Source: Bacillota bacterium (GTDB lineage Bacteria > Bacillota > DULZ01). Taken from it: a stretch of 64,000 nucleotides of DNA. Where the stretch lies: assembly GCA_041655595.1 (NCBI GenBank), contig JBBAFB010000001.1:2168-66167 (forward strand), read 5' to 3'. Positions 44,349 to 51,809 of the stretch are shown here, piece after piece (the first letter of the stretch is position 1; every line of letters starts with the position of its first letter). The notes under the pieces were generated by a model. The model saw only the letters and a list, made by a program, of their open reading frames with translations, was not told where the DNA came from and ran no database searches. Both the position numbers and the translations under genes were made by a program.

Positions 44349-45059
44349 TTGCTGAATTATCTCCTTTTGGGAGCATTGGCTTTATCAATTATAAAAGGCA
44401 TCTCCATGCTGGTTTCCTATATAGGAAATAACGCCTTTCCCCACCCTCTTTCAGAGGAGGAAGAAACAAAATACCTGACCTATCTGCAAGAGGGAGATAC
44501 AGATGCCCGTAATATATTAATAGAACACAATCTACGCTTGGTGGTGCACATTACCAAAAAGTTTGAAGGCACAGGTGAGGATAATGAGGACCTGATTTCC
44601 ATCGGTACCCTGGGATTGATCAAAGCAATTGACACCTTTAAGCCGGACAAAGGTACAAGGTTAGCTACTTATGCCGCCCGTTGCATTGAAAATGAAATTT
44701 TAATGCACTTAAGATATTTAAAAAAAAGTAAAGGTGAGGTATCAATTCACGATCCTATTGGCATAGATAGGGAAGGTAATGAAATTAGTTTAATAGATGT
44801 ATTGGGAACGGATCAAGATATTGTGGCGGATACAGTTGAATCTTTGTACGAACAAGAAAGGGTTTTAAATAAGCTGAATTCTTTAACCGCTAGGGAGAAA
44901 AAGGTAGTGATCTTGAGGTATGGTTTATTTAATAACTTCCGCAAAACCCAAAGGGAGATAGCAAAAAAACTGGGTATCTCCAGGTCGTATGTTTCAAGAA
45001 TTGAAAAAAAGGCTTTGGAAAAATTAATTAAAGAGATCACCGGAGAAAACCACAAATAA
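44349..45059 (+). CDS. sigK: Sporulation sigma factor pro-sigma-K (uninterrupted)
   Basis: 236 aa from a TTG start. [23 protein letters not shown]...[45 protein letters not shown] is near-identical in pattern to B. subtilis SigK including the pro-sequence. C-terminal [15 protein letters not shown] region 4. Confidence 0.88.
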
Positions 45060-45062
45060 ATT

Positions 45063-45761
45063 TTAAAAAATCAAATAAATTAAATAAACACCTAAAGCAA
45101 TAAGAATAATTGCACTAATATTAGTAATGATTTGGCTATATTTTTGAAAACTACCCAGGTTTTTAATGACCCCGGTAAAGGTGCCTGCCACCAGTAAGGG
45201 CAAGCCGTGACCCAAACCATAAAAGAAAAGGGATACACCCCCCAAAACCAGATCTCCTTGACTAGCTAAGTATGTTAAAATGACCGCTAAAACCGGGGTA
45301 GCACAAGGCGAAGCCACCAGCCCAAAAAACAAACCCATAAAAAAGCTGCCGAAAAGACCCCTACCCTTAACAGGCATGGTTTTTAAACCCGGAAAATTGA
45401 TAGTGAAAACTCCTAATAAATTTAACCCCATTAAAATAGCCACTACGGCCATGATAAGGTACCAATAGTTTCCGACCCTTCCGAATATTTGGTTTAAGGA
45501 AGCTGCAAGAATACCTAGGATGGCAAAAGTTACCCCCAACCCTACTACGAACGTTAGGGACATCCAAAAGCCCTTTAAACGGGAACTGCTGCTGTAACCA
45601 CCTACATAACCTACCATCACCGGCAACATGGACAGAATACAGGGGCTAAGACTGGTTACAACCCCTGCCGCGAAAATTATGGGTATGGCAAAGAATAAGT
45701 TGCCGGAGAGGGCTTGGGATGCCATCTGGGTAAAGGTTTCTATCAAGTTTGTTCCCTCCAA
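45063..45761 (-). CDS. ccdA: Cytochrome c-type biogenesis / thiol-disulfide transmembrane electron-transfer protein CcdA (DsbD core)
   Basis: 232 aa, 6 TM, conserved Cys in TM1 (SLSPCILSMLP) and TM4 (ASPCATPVL). Confidence 0.8.
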   Translation of the reverse strand: MEGTNLIETFTQMASQALSGNLFFAIPIIFAAGVVTSLSPCILSMLPVMVGYVGGYSSSSRLKGFWMSLTFVVGLGVTFAILGILAASLNQIFGRVGNYWYLIMAVVAILMGLNLLGVFTINFPGLKTMPVKGRGLFGSFFMGLFFGLVASPCATPVLAVILTYLASQGDLVLGGVSLFFYGLGHGLPLLVAGTFTGVIKNLGSFQKYSQIITNISAIILIALGVYLIYLIF

Positions 45762-45826
45762 AAATAAACATAGTCAACCCATGCTGACATGAGCTTTACC
45801 TTATAAATAAACCCCGCTGTCTGCCC

Positions 45827-46243
45827 CTATAACAATTCTATTAAAAGGCTTTCCAATTGATTTTTGGACATTACCCCTGAAAGCATCTGACCGCGCTGCT
45901 GCCCGTCGGCATCAACAAAAACATAGCTGGGAATATACATAACTTTTAATTGCGCCGCCAAATTATAGCCCTCATTATCGGTATCAGCTAAGATAAATTG
46001 AATTTCCGTGCCGTAGGCCTTTTGTAATTCCTCAATAATGGGTTTCATTTTAACGCAGGAAGGGCAGCGATCCGCATAAAACTCAATAAATATAGGCCTG
46101 CCTTCCGCTAAAGCTTGATCAATTTTTTCTTCCGGGTTAATCGTTGCTTCTATAACGGTATTTCTGGCTTTAAGAGCTGGTAAGCCAATGGCTACGACCA
46201 AGGCGAGGCCAATTATAATTGTGATTACTAAATTTTTTTTCAT
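45827..46243 (-). CDS. Membrane-anchored thioredoxin-fold thiol-disulfide oxidoreductase (ResA/TlpA-like)
   Basis: 138 aa. N-terminal TM anchor, Trx fold with CPSC active site (FYADRCPSCVKMKP). 65 nt upstream of ccdA. Confidence 0.75.
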   Translation of the reverse strand: MKKNLVITIIIGLALVVAIGLPALKARNTVIEATINPEEKIDQALAEGRPIFIEFYADRCPSCVKMKPIIEELQKAYGTEIQFILADTDNEGYNLAAQLKVMYIPSYVFVDADGQQRGQMLSGVMSKNQLESLLIELL

Positions 46244-46265
46244 CTAAATCTCCTTCCTTATCGGT

Positions 46266-46288
46266 GTTCGGTGATTGCTGAGCAATCA
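46266..46288. promoter_or_regulatory. Perfect inverted repeat CGGTGATTGC-tga-GCAATCACCG immediately 5' of the Trx-like gene RBS
   Basis: 10-bp arms, 3-nt spacer, no flanking U-tract, so operator- or attenuator-like rather than a terminator. The half-site CACCGA is repeated once more at 46258-46263. Confidence 0.5.
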
Positions 46289-46369
46289 CCGATAAAAGCT
46301 ACGGATTTTAGTATCATTTTGAAAACCGACTAATAAATATCAAATAGCGACCAAACAATAATCAAGTAA

Positions 46370-46663
46370 CTAGTATAATACAAAACCATCTACCACTAAA
46401 CGTCTGAATTTGGTGGACCCTTTTAATAGTACCTTCAAACCATCGGGGTTTATCGGGTTTCTTTTATCCACATAAACACTTATTCCGGAGATTTCCTGCT
46501 TTTCGAAATCTTCCGCTTCGGCTTTTTCCGGTTTTCCCGCAAACACGGCAGGAATTTTATAAGCGCCCCCTCACCCACGGCTGATTTCAACCAGCAAGGT
46601 TATGGTATCCGTCTTTTCTTTGATGTACTCCAATGCGTCCTCAGCAAAATTTACTTCTACCAA
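46370..46663 (-). CDS. Small ORF (97 codons) with one in-frame UGA at codon 31: candidate selenoprotein, or a very recent nonsense pseudogene
   Basis: Minus-strand TTG start at 46663 (RBS GAAGGTGA). Frame is open for 30 codons (MVEVNFAEDALEYIKEKTDTITLLVEISRG), then TGA at 46571-46573, then 66 more codons in the same frame (GGAYKIPAVFAGKPEKAEAEDFEKQEISGISVYVDKRNPINPDGLKVLLKGSTKFRRLVVDGFVLY) to TAG at 46370. Own promoter upstream, terminator-flanked, not in the ORF track. Confidence 0.35.
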
Positions 46664-46735
46664 TATAATCACCTTCTTTGTTTGTTGTTTTGGAAAATCT
46701 AAAACCGATCCGGAGTCTGCATTAAATTTGTTTCA

Positions 46736-46765
46736 ATTGTACTATATGTGATAATTAGCTGTCAA
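46736..46765 (-). promoter_or_regulatory. Sigma-A-type promoter TTGACA-N18-TACAAT upstream of the UGA-containing small ORF
   Basis: Minus-strand TTGACA at 46760-46765 and TACAAT at 46736-46741, about 70 nt upstream of the TTG start. Confidence 0.45.
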
Positions 46766-46813
46766 TGGATTTAGCGTAACATAATCTTTAGATATTGCAT
46801 AAATTTATTATAA

Positions 46814-46846
46814 CAAAAAAAGACCCGCTGTTGAACAACGGGCCCT
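46814..46846 (-). terminator. Rho-independent terminator downstream of the 8-TM membrane protein gene
   Basis: Minus-strand hairpin GGGCCCGTTG-ttcaa-CAGCGGGTC (one mismatch) followed by TTTTTTTGTT. Confidence 0.5.
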
Positions 46847-46865
46847 TTCATTATCAAAAAATACT

Positions 46866-47741
46866 TTAATTGTTTTCTTTAGCTGCTGAACCCAAAGATA
46901 GTAGCGGTCTGCGATCCACTAAGGTGCCGCCGATCTTTGGTGATAACAATAACAGCAAGGTAAAGAGACCGGCGGCAGTTCCTACATAAAATTCTGCCTG
47001 ATAGTAATTTCCCGTTAGAATTGTTCCTGTCCCCACGGCAAATAAAGCATTAGCTATAACGGCCAGCCAGTATCCCTTGACAGTGCGCCCCGCAAGCAAC
47101 GGTATGCTTACCAAGGCCAGGAATACACCCACTATTACTATTGGGGTGCCGATGGCATTGGAATAGCCCATATATCTGGGGTCGGTCATTAATAAACTCC
47201 ATAAGATCCTAAAGGCTCCGTGAAAATTTGCAAAATTCCAGGCGGCGGTTAATCCCAGCGCCATAAATACCACAATGCTGATTGCCTTTTGTTTACCCGA
47301 GGCCTTTTCCAAGAGTAAAATCATCAAAAAAGGTATTAAGCCCAAGGTCATCATTGCCACGGCATTCATGACATAGTCCGTTGCAAATTTTACCATGGGA
47401 CCAATTAAAGCTGCACCTGAAATACAGGGAATAGCTGCCATGCCCAATGCAAAGGGTCTGGCCCAATAATCACCTCTGTTAATCGGACCGGCAAGCAGAA
47501 GTAAGATAACACCGGCAATTATAGAAAGGGCACTCCAAAAAGGATACCAAAAGGTTACCATTTTTGGAGCAGCCACTATAGCCGGGTTACCTGCCTCCGC
47601 AATAAATTTATAAGCATTTAACAAAATTACCCCCTGTGCATTCATGGCTAACTTTGGTATAACAAAAATACAAATTAAACCTCCAACAATGGCAGTAATA
47701 GCCCCTATTTTCCGTTGACCGGCTGTAGTGTTATTAGTCAA
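46866..47741 (-). CDS. Polytopic (about 8 TM) membrane protein of unknown function
   Basis: Hydrophobic throughout. Preferred start is TTG at 47741 with an AGGAGGG RBS 7 nt upstream. The ORF track starts 12 codons earlier at 47777, also TTG, with no RBS. Confidence 0.5.
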   Translation of the reverse strand: MTNNTTAGQRKIGAITAIVGGLICIFVIPKLAMNAQGVILLNAYKFIAEAGNPAIVAAPKMVTFWYPFWSALSIIAGVILLLLAGPINRGDYWARPFALGMAAIPCISGAALIGPMVKFATDYVMNAVAMMTLGLIPFLMILLLEKASGKQKAISIVVFMALGLTAAWNFANFHGAFRILWSLLMTDPRYMGYSNAIGTPIVIVGVFLALVSIPLLAGRTVKGYWLAVIANALFAVGTGTILTGNYYQAEFYVGTAAGLFTLLLLLSPKIGGTLVDRRPLLSLGSAAKENN

Positions 47742-47927
47742 TTGATTTCCCTCCTGTCTTATTATCCAATCAGACAAAAAAGGTTGCTGAAGGGAGGCTG
47801 CTCATTACTTATTCATATTAAATGCATCCCCGAGGGTCCTGCCGGCCCTTCAAAGCCTGAAATAGCCCCGGTGGCATTCCAATAATAAATCAGTTAAAAA
47901 GCATTTCAGCAACCAAAATCATTTCAG

Positions 47928-48698
47928 CTAATTTAGCTTTTCTACGTGGAAAAAACCAGCTAATTTATCTGCATTATCTAACACAAAAGCTGCCCTTTGA
48001 TTCCAAGTTTTTTGCCAACTCTTTAATTGGGATTCGGTTACACTGGGATCGTCAGCCCCGATCTTTGCCTGTAACACTTCTAAATCGGGAGTATTAGGCG
48101 GTTGAGCCAGCATTAAATTATAAATAACTTCAACCTTTGCACCAGTGTCTCTCCTTTCCCAAATCCACTTCATTTGCGGTGGCGGAGTACCCGATGGCGC
48201 ATCGGGATAAATGAGCAAATCCCTTCTATTGTATTTTTCTCCGAAGGAAGACCCCGGGAAGCCCGAGTCGGCAGTGGCCCCTGTTATAAACTCAAAGATA
48301 TCTCCAAAAACCCCCACATACCACTCGTTCGCCGGTCCCGGCGCATGAATGATAATTTGTCCCCTCTCGGGAACCTGCCCATCGGGATACAAAGCCGCCA
48401 GGGCCTTTTTTGTGATACTCCAAGCCCCCGCGGTAGCCGCACAATGGTGGCCGGCAAATTTAACTACCTCTTGATAAAAATAAGGTATGGGCCCATCCAC
48501 TTGTCCCATAATCTCAAGAAATTGATCTCTCATCATAATCGGCTCTTCCTGATTAATTGCGGCTACCTTAAAATAACTGTAGGGTGCCTCTTGGCCGCTG
48601 CCCACTACGGGAGCTTTTGCTTGCGAACTGCAACCTGTAACCGCTAAGGCCAAAACTAACATGCAGGCAAACAGGACTGATAAGCTGTTTCTTTTCAT
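47928..48698 (-). CDS. Lipoprotein of unknown function (possible FmdE-like GHHC motif)
   Basis: MKRNSLSVLFACMLVLALAVTGC lipobox with AAGGAGGGG RBS. The track start at 48743 is 15 codons upstream. Contains FAGHHCAATAGAW, reminiscent of the GH-C-G motif of FmdE-domain proteins. The FmdE assignment is uncertain. Confidence 0.45.
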   Translation of the reverse strand: MKRNSLSVLFACMLVLALAVTGCSSQAKAPVVGSGQEAPYSYFKVAAINQEEPIMMRDQFLEIMGQVDGPIPYFYQEVVKFAGHHCAATAGAWSITKKALAALYPDGQVPERGQIIIHAPGPANEWYVGVFGDIFEFITGATADSGFPGSSFGEKYNRRDLLIYPDAPSGTPPPQMKWIWERRDTGAKVEVIYNLMLAQPPNTPDLEVLQAKIGADDPSVTESQLKSWQKTWNQRAAFVLDNADKLAGFFHVEKLN

Positions 48699-48798
48699 AA
48701 AAAACCCCTCCTTATTAAGTAAACTTTTACTTTTTTTGATCATTTTTTAATTTCACCTCCTTTTTTATAAGCTAAATTTTCATCGCAGCGATGCAATT

Positions 48799-49590
48799 TT
48801 AAATTTTAGATAACAACTCCTCCCCCTTGTTTTGGGGCGGCTTCTTTTTGTCAAACACGCTGACAACTTCGATGGCATTTTTTGTACAACTTTCTACACA
48901 CTGCAGGCAAAAATTACATTCATCATTTCTAACTAAACCAACTTCAAAAAGTTCCGGACATAAAATGTCCATTTGATTATTTTTACATTCTTTTAAGCAT
49001 CTTTTGCACGTAACACATTTGTCCGGGTTTATCTTCAAACGATAGATCTTAAATTTAGCGATTAATCCCAAAAGGGCTCCCACCGGGCATAAATACTTGC
49101 ACCAAAAACGCCTTTCATAGGCCTCGGCCAATAGTAAAAAAAGTAATACCAAAAGCTCAGGGCTTAGAACTAAACCACGGAAACTAACCGCTCTACAAGC
49201 TACCCCTATTGGACAGATCGAGCAAAACACTGCATATCTAAAAATTGCAGCACCCAGTATAATCGCGGCTAACAATCCGTATTTGATATTTCTGCTTTCC
49301 AAGGGCAGCCTTCTGCTTGTTCTCGGAACCAGTTTGCCCCCATGTTCCAGGATTGTTCCTATGGGACAAATCCAGCCGCAAAAGAGTCTGCCGGTTAGGA
49401 TTGTCACGATTATTAATACCAAGGAAGAAACAAGGGCTGCCAGTAAAAATAAACGGGTAGCTGCCATTGTTTGCAAAACTCCCAAGGGACAGGAGACAAA
49501 GATTACTCCCATTTTCAAAGAACAAAATGCTCCCACGGCAAACAGCATTATAAATAAAAAGATCAACTGAACACTGTGTCGAAACTCCAT
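48799..49590 (-). CDS. NapH/MauN-like membrane-bound polyferredoxin (4 TM + 2x[4Fe-4S])
   Basis: Four TM helices with the cytoplasmic motifs CPIGxxxxxxxxxxxxC... and C-terminal CVTCKRCLKECK / CNFCLQCVESC ferredoxin motifs. Start moved to the ATG at 49590 (MEFRHSV), which removes a 95-nt overlap with the upstream gene. Confidence 0.65.
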   Translation of the reverse strand: MEFRHSVQLIFLFIMLFAVGAFCSLKMGVIFVSCPLGVLQTMAATRLFLLAALVSSLVLIIVTILTGRLFCGWICPIGTILEHGGKLVPRTSRRLPLESRNIKYGLLAAIILGAAIFRYAVFCSICPIGVACRAVSFRGLVLSPELLVLLFLLLAEAYERRFWCKYLCPVGALLGLIAKFKIYRLKINPDKCVTCKRCLKECKNNQMDILCPELFEVGLVRNDECNFCLQCVESCTKNAIEVVSVFDKKKPPQNKGEELLSKI

Positions 49591-49594
49591 TTTG

Positions 49595-50218
49595 TCATCT
49601 CCTTGATTGCCTTTTACTTGCATCCAGCCTAAGCTCAAAGGCAGGGCAGGTATAAGCACAAAGCCCGCAACCGTCGCAAACATCTGCAATGATCTTTGGA
49701 AATCTTAATTTTAGATCACCGGAAACTGAAAATCTGCCCGTTTCGAAAATGTGATCCTCATCCTCAATAATGGCTTCCAGTTCACATAAATCAAAACACC
49801 GATCACAAAATTCCCCATTTGAAAGCACACATTTTTCCGGATCAAGATATGCAGTTCCAATTCCCAATTGGTCAAGGGTAGTTCTTTGCAGAACTCGGGT
49901 AGGACAAACAAGAGTACATTCCAGACATCTGGCACAATAATTATCCGGGGAAGCGAAATATGGTAAACCCACATTGCTATAGCCATCCCGCAAGGTCATC
50001 GCCTTTAAAACGCCTGTTTGGTGGTTTCTGCAGACATCAATACAAATTCCGCAGCGAAGGCAGCCGGTAGTAAAAGCTTCCTCATCTATCGCCCCCGGAG
50101 GCCGCAAAACCGGTTCCTCGGCACCGGCAATCTTCTTTTTGGATAAAGCGAAAAAGCCTAAAAAAAATAAAGTTGTGCTACTTGCAAATCGCAAAAATAC
50201 GCGCCTTGAAAAGTCCAT
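49595..50218 (-). CDS. NapG/MauM-like ferredoxin-type protein with Tat-like signal
   Basis: 207 aa. N-term MDFSRRVFLRFASSTTLFFLGFFALS (SRRxFL twin-arginine-like). Four Cys clusters: CLRCGICIDVC, CARCLECTLVCP, CDRCFDLC, CDGCGLCAYTCP. Confidence 0.65.
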   Translation of the reverse strand: MDFSRRVFLRFASSTTLFFLGFFALSKKKIAGAEEPVLRPPGAIDEEAFTTGCLRCGICIDVCRNHQTGVLKAMTLRDGYSNVGLPYFASPDNYCARCLECTLVCPTRVLQRTTLDQLGIGTAYLDPEKCVLSNGEFCDRCFDLCELEAIIEDEDHIFETGRFSVSGDLKLRFPKIIADVCDGCGLCAYTCPAFELRLDASKRQSRR

Positions 50219-50369
50219 TGTTTACTTCCTCCAATAATTAACTCGCCAAGGGAATTAAATGCATACTTCCCGCTTCTAAAAAACCTTGCCGATCAGCTTA
50301 GTGACAATCCGCACAAGCTTTTTGATAGCTTACCTGACCTAAGAGTATGCCAAGACAAAGTCATGGACC

Positions 50370-50383
50370 TTGATCCAGATCAA
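50370..50383. promoter_or_regulatory. Perfect FNR/CRP-type palindrome TTGAT-CCAG-ATCAA in the divergent napG-like / crp-fnr intergenic region
   Basis: 14/14 match to TTGAT-N4-ATCAA. On the minus strand a -10-like CATACT (50344-50349) puts the box centre about 40 nt upstream of the predicted TSS, which is class-II spacing. About 235 nt upstream of the Crp/Fnr gene on the plus side. Confidence 0.6.
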
Positions 50384-50616
50384 GTTGAGTTTAAAAGTTT
50401 TAATAATTATCTGTGCAGTTTGTTTGACTTTACGATCATCAAAAATTATTTCCTAAATCTTGAAATAGATGTTATAATAGTTTTAAGTTTCACAATATAT
50501 TTATCCTCACTTCGGAACTATTATAAAAATTGATTGCTTTGCTTTCTGTGCCGGCTAAAATAGCGATCGAATACTATATTAGCTTGGAAAAATAAGTAGA
50601 GAAACGGAGTGGTATC

Positions 50617-51300
50617 TTGAACAGTGAGCTTGTTTTAAAACTATCCCAATCTGCTGTTTTTAGAAAGGTTAGAAAAAGCGACTTGGAAGCCTTGAGCAAA
50701 CTGGCTATTAAAAAAACGTACCAAGCAAGACAAGTTATCTGTTCCTGTAATGATTTTTTCCCTTATGTTCTGGTGGTGGATCAAGGTTGTGCCCATGCTT
50801 CAATGATTTCCGACAAGGGACAATCTTTAATTGTCCGCTCACTTAAATCCGGTGATACCTTTTGGGGACACGCGGTAATTGATGGAGGACCTACACCGGG
50901 AACTTTAGCGGCCGCGGTGAACGACACCAAAATTTATTTGTGGCACAAAAACCATCTGATACCAATCCTGAAACAAAACCCTGATGCCCTTTGGGAAACA
51001 CTAGAGGTCCTTATGAGAAGGATGAGACAAGCTGCTTCAACTATTGATCAGTTAGCCTTTAATGATGTGTTAACAAGACTTGCTAACCTCATTCTTAACG
51101 AGTACCGTCACGCGGGGGGAGTGGCCAAGCTGCGTCGTTCTTTAACACTCGAGCAGATGGCCGCCATGGTTAACAGTAACCCCGAGGTGGTCTGCCGCCT
51201 GTTGTATCGGATCAGTGAAGAAGAAATCATTGATATTAATAGAAATGAATTGCTTATTCGGGATGTAAAAAAACTACAGGATTTGGCCGGAATCCCCTAA
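50617..51300 (+). CDS. Crp/Fnr-family transcriptional regulator (effector domain + C-terminal HTH)
   Basis: 227 aa, TTG start. cNMP-binding-like beta-barrel (RSLKSGDTFWGHAVIDGGP), C-terminal HTH RSLTLEQMAAMVNSNPEVVCRLLYRI. No N-terminal Cys cluster, so it is not a canonical oxygen-sensing FNR. Confidence 0.85.
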   Translation: MNSELVLKLSQSAVFRKVRKSDLEALSKLAIKKTYQARQVICSCNDFFPYVLVVDQGCAHASMISDKGQSLIVRSLKSGDTFWGHAVIDGGPTPGTLAAAVNDTKIYLWHKNHLIPILKQNPDALWETLEVLMRRMRQAASTIDQLAFNDVLTRLANLILNEYRHAGGVAKLRRSLTLEQMAAMVNSNPEVVCRLLYRISEEEIIDINRNELLIRDVKKLQDLAGIP

Positions 51301-51320
51301 CAAAATTGCGAAAAACAAAA

Positions 51321-51354
51321 AACCGCTTCCGGACTAAGGAAGCGGTTTTTTCTG
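51321..51354. terminator. Bidirectional rho-independent terminator after the crp/fnr gene
   Basis: Perfect 10-bp stem AACCGCTTCC / GGAAGCGGTT with a 7-nt loop, A-run on the 5' side and TTTTTTCT on the 3' side. Confidence 0.75.
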
Positions 51355-51362
51355 ACATTGCC

Positions 51363-51809
51363 TTAAACAAGGCATTGGCTCTTTAGGGAAAATTCCATTG
51401 AGCAACCCTCATCAGTAGGTTTTACATCCACAAACCAGACATTACAAGCCAACCCTCGACTGAGAGTAAACATCAAGAAAGGATCAATGGGACATAGACT
51501 GTAACCGTTCTTTTTTTTACAACTGCCGTTAGCTTCTTTTAATTGACAACCCTTAATATTTACCAAAATATCACTACTATCAATTATATTTAGCTCTAGG
51601 TTTTGGCAAAAGGGAAATTCCTTTAAAAATGCCTCGTTTAATAAGGCACTTATTTCTTCGTAAGACAAAGGAACCCCGAGCTCTTCCTCAAACAGCTCCT
51701 CTGTTAAGACCCAGGCCATTTTTGCCCTGATATTGTCTATTTCCTTACCCGTTGCACAACCTAGAACCTTTAAATATTTATCCATCAATACCCTTTCTCG
51801 CCCTTCCAT
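51363..51809 (-). CDS. Cys-rich small cytoplasmic protein, unknown function (possibly V4R-like)
   Basis: 148 aa, 7 Cys. No strong motif recognised by eye. The V4R assignment is speculative. Confidence 0.3.
   Translation of the reverse strand: MEGRERVLMDKYLKVLGCATGKEIDNIRAKMAWVLTEELFEEELGVPLSYEEISALLNEAFLKEFPFCQNLELNIIDSSDILVNIKGCQLKEANGSCKKKNGYSLCPIDPFLMFTLSRGLACNVWFVDVKPTDEGCSMEFSLKSQCLV

What the first reader, a model, noticed from the sequence alone, without database searches (positions are those of the whole stretch)
48799..51300. Crp/Fnr regulator facing a NapG/NapH-like ferredoxin operon across a perfect TTGAT-N4-ATCAA box at class-II spacing
The 14-bp palindrome TTGATCCAGATCAA (50370-50383) is a perfect FNR/CRP-type site. 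On the minus strand it is centred about 40 nt upstream of a -10-like CATACT, and about 150 nt upstream of the Tat-signal NapG-like gene. It is also about 235 nt upstream of the divergent Crp/Fnr-family gene, which has no N-terminal Cys cluster, so its effector is unknown. The target operon encodes a periplasm-facing ferredoxin and a 4-TM polyferredoxin, a NapGH-type quinol-oxidising electron-transfer pair. No catalytic reductase follows. The next minus-strand genes are a lipoprotein (possible FmdE-like GHHC motif), an 8-TM membrane protein, the UGA-ORF, a ResA-like thioredoxin and CcdA. The whole 45.0-50.2 kb minus-strand stretch could be one regulated extracytoplasmic electron- or thiol-delivery system whose terminal acceptor is not obvious.
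Basis: partly seen in the sequence, partly recalled or inferred. Interest (0 to 1): 0.65.

Follow-up and report, generated by a model that had tools for sequence, protein, structure and literature searches.

The report
Conserved FNR-type box controlling an orphan redox operon
A perfect FNR-type DNA palindrome between a Crp/Fnr-family regulator gene and a four-gene membrane electron-transfer operon is a real, evolutionarily conserved operator, but the operon's substrate and the regulator's signal remain unknown.

Summary
TTGATCCAGATCAA (50370-50383) is the only perfect TTGAT-N4-ATCAA site in the window. It lies in the divergent intergenic region, 20 nt upstream of an extended -10-like TGgCATACT, and there is no -35 hexamer.

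All five distinct Firmicute orthologous promoters keep C-TTGAY-N4-RTCAA-G at the same place. The same regulator subfamily in 75 metagenome loci, mostly Anaerolineae-like, has a TTG[AC]-N6-[GT]CAA box upstream in 37. That is about 16-fold over background. A recognition-helix residue co-varies with operator position 4.

The regulator has an FNR-like E..CR helix (PEVVCR). It has no FNR cysteine cluster and no CRP cAMP-binding Arg-Ser.

The operon has four genes:
- a Tat-exported NapG-like 4x[4Fe-4S] ferredoxin;
- a NapH-like membrane polyferredoxin;
- an unannotated 8-helix membrane protein, the most constant genomic partner of this regulator subfamily.

The operon ends at a strong terminator. 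The CC/Se selenoprotein-thioredoxin-CcdA genes have their own consensus promoter and are a separate unit.

The regulatory reading is well supported. The NapGH-type electron-delivery function is inferred, and the acceptor is unknown. This is a new variant of a known kind, of moderate interest.

The parts
50369..50384 (.). Operator: CTTGAT-CCAG-ATCAAG. The core TTGATCCAGATCAA lies at 50370-50383.
   Evidence: It is conserved as C-TTGAY-N4-RTCAA-G in L002, L171, L172 and L173.
50344..50352 (-). Extended -10-like element TGgCATACT of the operon promoter. No -35 hexamer is present; the box's promoter-proximal arm sits where it would be.
   Evidence: Orthologs have AATAAT, TATGAT or CATAAG/TAAGAT 20-23 nt after the box. 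The transcription start was not measured.
50299..50316 (-). Conserved leader motif TTGTGCGGATTGTCACTA (GTG-N8-CAC). It starts exactly 60 nt downstream of the box centre. It is either a second operator or an RNA hairpin loop; this is unresolved.
   Evidence: It occurs only in the Firmicute orthologs with a long leader.
50617..51300 (+). Crp/Fnr-family regulator, 227 aa, TTG start. It has a cNMP-binding-like barrel and an HTH_Crp_2 domain. The recognition helix is NPEVVCRLLYRI.
49595..50218 (-). NapG-like ferredoxin, 207 aa. It has a twin-arginine signal (SRRVFL) and four Cys clusters for [4Fe-4S].
   Evidence: NapG model 93.6 bits against a cut-off of 269.
48799..49590 (-). NapH-like membrane polyferredoxin, 263 aa. 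It has 4 TM helices, CxxxCP motifs and two C-terminal [4Fe-4S] motifs.
   Evidence: TIGR02163 115.6 bits against a cut-off of 213.
47928..48743 (-). FmdE-fold lipoprotein (lipobox VTGC, motif FAGHHC). NCBI calls the start 15 codons later.
46866..47777 (-). 8-helix integral membrane protein of an unannotated family (the called start is 47741, giving 291 aa).
46817..46849 (-). Intrinsic terminator that ends the four-gene operon.
   Evidence: 15 pairs followed by a T-run.
51317..51351 (.). Hairpin with A- and T-runs between the regulator gene and the convergent orf148. It is a likely bidirectional terminator.

Best explanation
The 16-bp palindrome is the operator of the divergently encoded Crp/Fnr-family regulator. 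A dimer of the regulator binds it. Because the site is centred about 40 nt upstream of the start of a promoter with a weak extended -10 and no -35, the bound dimer most likely activates transcription in the class-II manner of FNR, FixK and CprK.

The regulator belongs to a previously undescribed subfamily. Its recognition helix is (P/R)-E-V/M-V-C-R. It has no Fe-S cysteine cluster and no cAMP-binding Arg-Ser. Its signal is therefore not oxygen sensed through an FNR-type cluster and not cAMP. I infer a small-molecule ligand in the beta-barrel, or a redox effect on the near-invariant Cys193 in the recognition helix.

The transcript covers four genes and stops at a strong terminator. The proposed working model is as follows:
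- The NapH-like membrane polyferredoxin oxidises menaquinol.
- It passes electrons to the Tat-exported NapG-like 4x[4Fe-4S] ferredoxin on the outer face of the membrane.
- That ferredoxin reduces a site or substrate held by the FmdE-fold lipoprotein (conserved GHxC) together with the 8-helix membrane protein.

What is shown: the operator, its conservation, the co-variation between regulator and operator, the operon limits, the protein folds and motifs, and the gene linkage. What is inferred: activation rather than repression, the direction of electron flow, the acceptor and the effector. The stated confidence of 0.6 is a blend: about 0.85 for the operator/regulator assignment and about 0.35 for the electron-delivery function.
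For: Operator:
- It is the single perfect site and it is intergenic.
- C-TTGAY-N4-RTCAA-G is invariant in five distinct orthologous promoters whose flanks have otherwise diverged. Mean column identity is 47%, and the invariant columns cluster in the box.
- A -10-like hexamer follows 20-23 nt after the box in all five.
- Across 75 metagenome loci of the same regulator subfamily, 37 have TTG[AC]N6[GT]CAA within 300 bp upstream. The density is 1.81 per kb against 0.116 per kb elsewhere in the same loci.
- The residue before the conserved Glu co-varies with operator position 4. With Pro, 15 of 16 half-sites are TTGA. With Arg, 46 of 64 are TTGC.
- E190 and R194 align with FNR E209/R213 and CRP E181/R185.

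Module:
- The layout Crp <-> NapG-NapH-lipoprotein-8TM recurs in L002, with fragments in L004, L006, L171 and L172.
- Chloroflexi loci L010-L013 and L016 keep Crp, a tandem FmdE-like lipoprotein, the 8TM protein and the NapH-like protein.
- At least 25 of 80 regulator homologs sit divergently next to an 8TM homolog.

Proteins:
- Tat motif and Fe-S motifs.
- GHxC is conserved in about 95% of 131 family members.

Operon end:
- Terminator followed by a new promoter.
Against: - No transcription start, binding or expression data exist. The -10 is weak (CATACT), and the -39.5 spacing is 2 bp shorter than the canonical -41.5.
- The NapG-like and NapH-like proteins miss every curated NCBIfam threshold.
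- The Chloroflexi modules keep NapH but not NapG, so NapG is not a universal partner.
- The FmdE-type metal site is incomplete. The first His is Ala and no distal Cys is present.
- No residue in the sensor domain points to a cofactor.
Confidence: 0.6

Rival explanations
1. The box is used by a different, global FNR-type anaerobic regulator encoded elsewhere in the genome. The adjacent Crp/Fnr gene is only a neighbour.
For: The site is a 10/10 match to the classical FNR consensus (established knowledge). Only 64 kb of the genome is visible, so other Crp/Fnr paralogs cannot be excluded.
Against: The regulator and the box stay adjacent across two phyla and dozens of loci. Operator position 4 tracks a residue in the adjacent regulator's recognition helix.
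Confidence: 0.08
2. The regulator is a repressor. By sitting over the -35 region it blocks RNA polymerase until a ligand releases it.
For: The box overlaps the -35 position. Close 8TM homologs elsewhere are paired with a TetR-type repressor (L008).
Against: There is no recognisable -35 and only a weak -10, which is the signature of an activator-dependent promoter. From established knowledge, Crp/Fnr proteins bound near -41.5 are activators in nearly all studied cases.
Confidence: 0.1
3. The signal is nitric oxide or anaerobiosis, in a DNR/NnrR/NssR-like way. The operon would belong to a nitrogen-oxide or anaerobic stress response.
For: Distant cytoplasmic relatives of the lipoprotein occur in denitrifiers and Campylobacterota. 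TTGA[TC]N4[AG]TCAA boxes are concentrated just upstream of them: 6 of 20 sites in 1.2 Mb fall within -160..-60. Their neighbours are DUF2249, DUF59, YgbA_NO, nrdDG, Moco genes and a Crp/Fnr gene. DUF2249 proteins act in nitrate respiration under a CRP-like regulator in Thermus (PMC6282519).
Against: Those relatives are only 33-37% identical, lack the signal peptide and have different partners. The window shows no nitrogen-oxide reductase within +/-10 kb. The regulator has no conserved His or Cys in the sensor domain that could bind heme.
Confidence: 0.2
4. The operon is a redox-assisted transporter. The lipoprotein binds a solute such as a metal or oxyanion, the 8-helix protein is the permease, and the NapGH-like pair changes the redox state of the cargo. 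This is analogous in composition to FtrABCD, where FtrD is a NapH-like polyferredoxin (from memory).
For: Lipoprotein orthologs are followed by other transporter-like membrane proteins where the 8TM protein is missing: an MFS gene in L001 and ABC-2 permeases nearby in L009. The 8TM protein has invariant or near-invariant Arg190 and Lys164 and no cofactor ligands. The lipoprotein family keeps His, Cys and several Arg residues.
Against: No transporter family matches the 8TM protein. Metal uptake systems are not usually controlled by Crp/Fnr regulators.
Confidence: 0.2
5. All minus-strand genes from 45.0 to 50.2 kb, including the selenoprotein, thioredoxin and CcdA, form one regulated thiol/electron delivery system.
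For: The two gene sets are adjacent in the window and in L004. Both act outside the cytoplasmic membrane.
Against: A strong terminator separates them, and the second set has its own near-consensus promoter. No box precedes the second unit. The second unit is absent in L002 and in the Chloroflexi loci.
Confidence: 0.08
6. The palindrome is a chance occurrence with no function.
For: 14 of 100 shuffled windows contain at least one perfect site somewhere.
Against: It is conserved in five orthologous promoters at fixed spacing. The box class is about 16-fold enriched upstream of the regulator subfamily.
Confidence: 0.01

Closest known systems
FNR / FixK2-type class-II activation (TTGAT-N4-ATCAA; FixK2 box TTGA(C/T)-N4-(G/A)TCAA)
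   Same: The operator core and geometry are the same. The Glu and Arg of the recognition helix are conserved. The box sits over the -35 region of a promoter that lacks a -35. Like FixK2, it has no N-terminal Cys cluster (FixK2 detail from established knowledge).
   Different: There is no [4Fe-4S] ligand set. Cys replaces FNR Ser212 in the helix. No curated family threshold is met; the best NCBIfam score is 34.5 bits against a cut-off of 266. The effector is unknown, and the target genes differ.
CprK / RdhK regulators of organohalide respiration (dehalobox TTAAT-N4-ATTAA)
   Same: It is a ligand-type Crp/Fnr protein in Firmicutes and Chloroflexi, encoded next to its target and often in tandem paralog arrays with paralogous membrane targets. 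It uses a 14-bp palindrome at about -41.5.
   Different: The half-site is TTGA(T/C), not TTAAT, an 8/10 match. No rdhA or rdhB gene is present in any locus examined.
NapGH, NosGH and MauMN quinol-dehydrogenase / ferredoxin pairs
   Same: There is a Tat-exported four-cluster ferredoxin plus a 4-TM protein with CxxxCP motifs and two cytoplasmic clusters. These are the best family hits for both proteins.
   Different: The scores are far below the NapG, NapH and MauM cut-offs. No NapA, NosZ or methylamine dehydrogenase partner is present. The Chloroflexi versions lack the NapG-like subunit.
FmdE family (PF02663; structures 2GLZ, 2GVI, 3D00)
   Different: The window protein itself gets no Pfam hit. 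It is exported and lipid-anchored, and it lacks the first His and the distal Cys of the 2His-2Cys metal site. It has no zinc-ribbon domain and is tandemly duplicated in Chloroflexi.
FtrABCD iron transporter (recalled from memory, not tested)
   Same: The composition is similar: an extracytoplasmic binding protein, a permease-like membrane protein and a NapH-like polyferredoxin.
   Different: Homology is limited to the polyferredoxin. No P19, cupredoxin or FTR1 domain is present, and the regulation differs.

Membership tests
FNR-type operator at a class-II promoter | Palindrome TTGAT-N4-ATCAA | tested here: met
   10/10 match at 50370-50383.
FNR-type operator at a class-II promoter | Centred near -41.5 relative to the transcription start | tested here: inconclusive
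   Centre is about -39.5 from the start inferred from TGgCATACT. Orthologs give -39.5 to -42.5. No mapped start is available.
FNR-type operator at a class-II promoter | Conserved upstream of orthologous operons | tested here: met
   Present in 5 of 5 distinct Firmicute loci. A variant, TTGCN-N4-NGCAA, occurs in Chloroflexi.
FNR proper (oxygen sensor) | N-terminal Cys cluster plus a central Cys that bind [4Fe-4S] | tested here: not met
   No counterpart appears in the alignment with E. coli FNR. No Cys is conserved in the sensor domain.
CRP (cAMP receptor) | Arg82-Ser83 cAMP contacts and a TGTGA half-site | tested here: not met
   CRP ERSA aligns with PTPG. The box matches TGTGA-N6-TCACA at only 6/10. 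NCBIfam CRP scores 34.5 bits against a cut-off of 266.
CprK/RdhK | Dehalobox TTAAT-N4-ATTAA and an adjacent reductive dehalogenase gene | tested here: not met
   The half-site has G at position 3. No rdhA is present in the window or related loci.
NapG (NF007012 / TIGR00397) | Curated model score | tested here: not met
   93.6 bits against 269, and 64.6 against 178.85.
NapG | Twin-arginine signal and four [4Fe-4S] Cys motifs | tested here: met
   SRRVFL and four CxxCxxCxxxC-type groups are visible in the translation. Multiple Fer4 hits support this.
NapH (TIGR02163 / NF007013) | Curated model score | tested here: not met
   115.6 bits against 213.05, and 110.4 against 234.
NapH | Four TM helices, CxxxCP motifs and two C-terminal [4Fe-4S] motifs | tested here: met
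   FCGWICPIG, WCKYLCPVG, CVTCKRCLKEC and CNFCLQCVESC are in the translation. Fer4_5 is hit twice.
NapGH system | Genetic linkage to a periplasmic nitrate reductase (NapA/NapB) | tested here: not met
   No molybdoenzyme lies within +/-10 kb or in orthologous loci.
FmdE (PF02663) | Pfam model above threshold | tested here: not met
   The window protein has no hit at E <= 0.01. A distant relative, L057:9971-10564, scores 39.9 bits against a cut-off of 22.9.
FmdE (PF02663) | alpha+beta core fold | tested here: met
FmdE (PF02663) | FHGHxC motif plus a distal Cys forming a 2His-2Cys metal site | tested here: not met
   The motif here is FAGHHC. Only His99 and Cys101 are conserved family-wide, and there is no distal Cys.
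CC/Se motif (seleno)protein (NF041239), for the neighbouring UGA-ORF | Curated model score and an in-frame UGA at the CC/Se position | tested here: met
   80.1 bits against a cut-off of 40 with U modelled as C. The L004 ortholog keeps the UGA.

The most novel reading that the evidence does not exclude
The locus is the Firmicute form of an undescribed membrane system that spans Bacillota and Chloroflexota and is controlled by a ligand or redox signal. It would comprise a new Crp/Fnr subfamily with a cysteine in the DNA-recognition helix and its own operator code (Pro with TTGA, Arg with TTGC). This subfamily would drive two protein families with no annotation, the 8-helix membrane protein and the exported FmdE-fold protein, powered by NapH-type quinol oxidation. 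That would be a new kind of extracytoplasmic quinol-dependent reductase or processing system for a substrate not yet known.
Probability: 0.3. Interest if true: 0.7.

Novelty: new variant of a known kind. Interest (0 to 1): 0.52.

Why it matters
- It gives a concrete, testable operator and regulator pair for a Crp/Fnr subfamily that no curated model covers. The pair includes a simple specificity rule linking one helix residue to one operator position.
- It ties two unannotated protein families, an 8-helix membrane protein and an exported FmdE-fold lipoprotein, to quinol-linked electron transfer in uncultured Bacillota and Anaerolineae.
- It provides the first genomic-context clues for the FmdE fold outside methanogens. 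Distant relatives recur behind FNR-type boxes in denitrifiers.
- If the effector and acceptor can be found, this may reveal a new respiratory or detoxification activity. If not, it remains a well-defined regulon of unknown function.

Tried and rejected
- I tested whether Thermus DrpB, which lies next to the DUF2249 gene drpA, belongs to the lipoprotein family. It does not: DrpB is DUF1858 plus two DUF2249 domains.
- Rfam search of 45000-51400 found no family, riboswitch or SECIS model.
- Folding the 122-nt leader gave z = -0.43. The four-sequence consensus fold gives an 8-pair hairpin with 2 compensatory pairs, which is too few sequences to decide.
- orf148 (51363-51809) is conserved only in the syntenic MAG L171 (68% identity) and not in L002. 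It is not part of the module.
- The other one-mismatch boxes in the window all lie inside coding regions.
- Pfam and NCBIfam searches of the Chloroflexi partner genes (c1, c3, c4, c6) returned nothing.
- Literature searches for NapH with FmdE, and for NapGH with Crp/Fnr, found no description of this system.
Full report
**1. Observation**

The + strand at 50370-50383 reads TTGATCCAGATCAA. With one more base on each side it is CTTGAT-CCAG-ATCAAG. It is the only perfect TTGAT-N4-ATCAA in the 64-kb window. Dinucleotide shuffles expect 0.14 copies, and 14 of 100 shuffles have at least one. With one mismatch allowed there are 8 sites against 3.7 expected, and all of the others lie inside coding regions. 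Of the 30 TTG-N8-CAA strings in the window, this is the only highly palindromic one (12 of 14 positions) in the 8% of the window that is intergenic. On its own the site is suggestive. The comparative data below make it solid.

**2. Local anatomy**

Read on the minus strand, the order is: the box; a 20-nt spacer; TGgCATACT, an extended -10-like element at 50352..50344; a leader of about 120 nt; a GGAGG ribosome-binding site; and the ATG at 50218.

- No -35 hexamer is present. The promoter-proximal arm of the box occupies that position.
- The box centre is 27.5 nt from the first base of the hexamer, about -39.5 from an inferred start near 50337.
- The consensus promoter scan found no full sigma-70 promoter in the intergenic region. 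That fits an activator-dependent promoter.
- The regulator gene starts with TTG at 50617, 240 nt from the box centre. It has its own TGTTATAAT-type element near 50472-50480, seen directly in the sequence. The box is therefore positioned for the operon promoter, not for the regulator gene's promoter.

**3. The genes**

- *Regulator (227 aa).* It has cNMP_binding (29.3 bits) and HTH_Crp_2 (41.7 bits) domains. No NCBIfam equivalog comes near its cut-off.
- *NapG-like (207 aa).* It has an SRRVFL twin-arginine signal and four Fe-S Cys groups. The best model is NapG, at 93.6 bits against a cut-off of 269.
- *NapH-like (263 aa, starting at 49590).* It has two Fer4_5 segments, CxxxCP motifs and two C-terminal clusters. 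TIGR02163 scores 115.6 bits against a cut-off of 213.
- *Lipoprotein (271 aa, lipobox VTGC).* No Pfam or NCBIfam hit.
- *Membrane protein (291-303 aa).* No family assignment.
- A 15-pair terminator lies at 46849..46817. It is followed by a TTGACA-18-TACAAT promoter at 46765..46736.
- The genes after that promoter are:
  - the UGA-containing ORF (46663..46370; Sec codon at 46573-46571);
  - a membrane-anchored thioredoxin;
  - CcdA.
- The UGA-ORF is a CC/Se motif family (seleno)protein (NF041239, 80.1 bits against a cut-off of 40). Its L004 ortholog keeps the in-frame TGA.
- The flanking genes are housekeeping genes: alaS, ruvX, mltG/yceG, a U32 peptidase, a sigma factor and pilus genes.

**4. 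Conservation of the box in orthologs**

Orthologs of the lipoprotein, the 8TM protein and the NapG-like protein are rare. The searches found 7, 10 and 6 clusters among 5.8 billion proteins. Their contigs gave four further distinct promoter regions:

| Locus | Box | Centre to ATG |
|---|---|---|
| L002 | cTTGACTTAAGTCAAg | 77 nt |
| L171 | cTTGACCGGGGTCAAg | 126 nt |
| L172 | cTTGACCTGGGTCAAg | 285 nt |
| L173 | cTTGACCTAGGTCAAg | 198 nt |

- In each, a -10-like hexamer follows 20-23 nt after the box.
- In the five-way alignment the only long invariant block is CTTGA...TCAAG. Mean column identity is 47%.
- The distance from the box to the regulator gene varies from 130 to 449 nt. The distance to the operon's -10 does not vary. 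The box therefore belongs to the operon promoter.
- L002 shows the full layout: Crp <-> NapG-NapH-lipoprotein-8TM, followed by unrelated genes.
- L171 has the same chromosomal synteny as the window.

**5. The regulator subfamily and its operator code**

A genome scan with the lipoprotein profile found Anaerolineae loci (L010-L013, L016). These carry a divergent Crp homolog (30-36% identity), a tandemly duplicated FmdE-like lipoprotein, one or two 8TM paralogs and a NapH-like gene. Upstream of them sits TTTGC(G/C/T)TTAAGGCAAAGAC, again about 27 nt before a -10.

A metagenome scan with the regulator alignment returned 80 loci at 33-65% identity.

- In at least 25 of them, an 8TM homolog is the immediately divergent gene.
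- In 37 of the 75 loci with enough upstream sequence, a TTG[AC]N6[GT]CAA box lies within 300 bp upstream. The density is 1.81 per kb against 0.116 per kb in the rest of the same loci. The consensus is TTGCCTTAAGGCAA.
- The residue preceding the conserved Glu of the recognition helix tracks operator position 4. P-E-V-V-C-R goes with TTGA in 15 of 16 half-sites. R-E-M/V-V-C-R goes with TTGC in 46 of 64. These counts are not phylogenetically independent, but at least three separate P-type lineages agree.
E190 and R194 match FNR E209/R213 and CRP E181/R185. C193 takes the place of FNR S212, and P189 that of FNR V208 and CRP R180. The FNR Cys cluster and the CRP ERSA cAMP contacts have no counterpart.
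- No Cys or His is conserved in the sensor domain across the subfamily.

The effector remains unknown.

**6. The lipoprotein**

An AlphaFold model built from seven sequences has pLDDT 78.8 and pTM 0.74.

- Foldseek against PDB found nothing.
- A profile search found 571 representative relatives, most about 200 aa and without an N-terminal extension. One of them, L057:9971-10564, passes the Pfam FmdE threshold.
- Canonical FmdE proteins bind Zn or Ni through the FHGHxC motif plus a distal Cys (PMC2954224). Here the motif is FAGHHC.
- Family-wide, Gly98, His99 and Cys101 are kept in about 95% of members, together with Arg127, Arg173 and Arg197. The first His and the distal Cys are absent.

The protein is therefore a divergent, exported, lipid-anchored FmdE-fold protein with a partly retained His/Cys site.

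**7. The 8-helix protein**

The model has pLDDT 80.7 and eight long helices.

- In the 22-sequence alignment the invariant residues are Pro41, Gly89, Trp105, Leu147, Gly175 and Gly235. Pro117, Lys164, Arg190 and Pro280 are at least 90% conserved. No His, Cys or Met is conserved.
- Eight of 22 members give sub-threshold DUF7144 hits.
- A more distant homolog sits next to a TetR gene.
- This protein is the most constant partner of the regulator subfamily and often occurs as two or three paralogs beside two or three regulator paralogs.

**8. What the system probably does**

The regulatory logic is well supported: a cognate activator bound at a class-II-type site. For the encoded function the evidence is anatomical only. 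The components are:

- a quinol-oxidising membrane polyferredoxin;
- an exported four-cluster ferredoxin;
- an exported His/Cys protein;
- a cofactor-less membrane protein.

The most economical reading is that electrons are delivered from menaquinol to a site or substrate held by the lipoprotein and the 8TM protein. A redox-assisted transporter, similar in composition to FtrABCD, is a serious rival.

There is a hint toward nitrogen-oxide or anaerobic physiology from distant cytoplasmic relatives of the lipoprotein.

- They occur in Rhodanobacter, Castellaniella, Campylobacterota, Brocadiaceae and Nitrosospira.
- They are preceded by FNR/DNR-type boxes far more often than chance allows. Six of the 20 sites in 1.2 Mb lie within -160..-60 of the gene.
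- Their neighbours are DUF2249, DUF59, YgbA_NO, nrdDG, Moco-biosynthesis genes and another Crp/Fnr gene.

That link is indirect, because those relatives share only 33-37% identity, act in a different compartment and have different partners.

**9. What does not belong**

The selenoprotein/thioredoxin/CcdA genes are a separate transcription unit. A terminator precedes them and they have their own promoter. L004 has a 12/12 consensus promoter at the same place. These genes are not linked to the module in L002 or in the Chloroflexi loci.

**10. An unresolved extra**

Four of the five Firmicute leaders share TTGYGCNNNNTNTCACTA. In every case it starts exactly 60 nt downstream of the box centre, and it is absent from all other fetched loci. 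It contains a GTG-N8-CAC core, which is the geometry of Rex and CRP sites (from memory). It is flanked by short complementary arms with two compensatory changes. The leader as a whole is not unusually stable (z = -0.43). It could be a second operator at about +20 to +37, or a small RNA hairpin.

**11. Verdict**

- The regulatory interpretation is supported.
- The wide 'one system' reading is not supported.
- The protein labels NapG/NapH and FmdE hold as resemblances, not as family memberships.
- The finding is a new variant of a known kind: a new Crp/Fnr subfamily and operator variant that controls an orphan quinol-linked extracytoplasmic module.

Noticed in passing
window 50299-50316 (- strand); L171 7935-7952; L172 1219-1236; L173 263-280: A conserved leader motif, TTGYGCNNNNTNTCACTA with a GTG-N8-CAC core, starts exactly 60 nt downstream of the box centre in four orthologs and is absent from the other 168 loci. 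It may be a second operator (Rex/CRP-like geometry) or the loop of a small RNA hairpin.
   Followed up: partly
window 46370-46663 (- strand), Sec codon 46571-46573: The UGA-containing ORF is a CC/Se motif family (seleno)protein (NF041239, 80 bits). It heads its own operon with an anchored thioredoxin (45827-46243) and CcdA (45063-45746), behind a near-consensus promoter at 46736-46765. The L004 ortholog keeps the in-frame TGA and has a 12/12 consensus promoter.
   Followed up: partly
L011 8892-18262 (also L010, L012, L093): The Anaerolineae version of the regulon is one long operon: 8TM, a tandem FmdE-like lipoprotein, 8TM, NapH-like, a 265-aa membrane protein, a 500-aa His-rich 12-TM protein (LYH, GHLH and GHWH motifs; no Pfam or NCBIfam hit), an FGE-sulfatase-like protein, a UbiA prenyltransferase and a 200-aa membrane protein. 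A small Cys-rich lipoprotein (130-150 aa) is another frequent first gene.
   Followed up: partly
L010-L016 (for example L011 9824-11383): In Chloroflexi the FmdE-like domain is tandemly duplicated within one ~520-aa lipoprotein. Each half is 46-50% identical to the window protein.
   Followed up: no
L057 1-12558; L025; L019, L040, L070, L081: Cytoplasmic ~200-aa relatives of the lipoprotein in Campylobacterota and Betaproteobacteria sit behind perfect TTGA[TC]N4[AG]TCAA boxes. In L057 the gene lies in an island with five such boxes, nrdDG, moaA/mobA/moeA, a cytochrome c, two DUF2249 genes, DUF59, YgbA_NO and a Crp/Fnr gene. In seven Alcaligenaceae loci the gene is divergent from an aconitase gene, and in Brocadiaceae it lies next to mqnC/mqnA-type genes.
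   Followed up: partly
window 51193-51195 (codon for Cys193 of the regulator): A cysteine sits in the DNA-recognition helix, at the position of FNR Ser212. It is conserved in at least 90% of the aligned subfamily members. This could make DNA binding sensitive to oxidation or nitrosation.
   Followed up: no
window 51363-51809 (- strand): orf148 is a Cys-containing 148-aa protein with no Pfam or NCBIfam hit. It is 68% identical to the syntenic gene in L171 and absent from L002. It is convergent with the regulator gene across a bidirectional-looking terminator (51317-51351).
   Followed up: partly
L008 9213-10831: A distant 8TM homolog (33% identity) directly follows a TetR-family regulator gene. 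Members of this membrane family therefore tend to be paired with one-component regulators.
   Followed up: no
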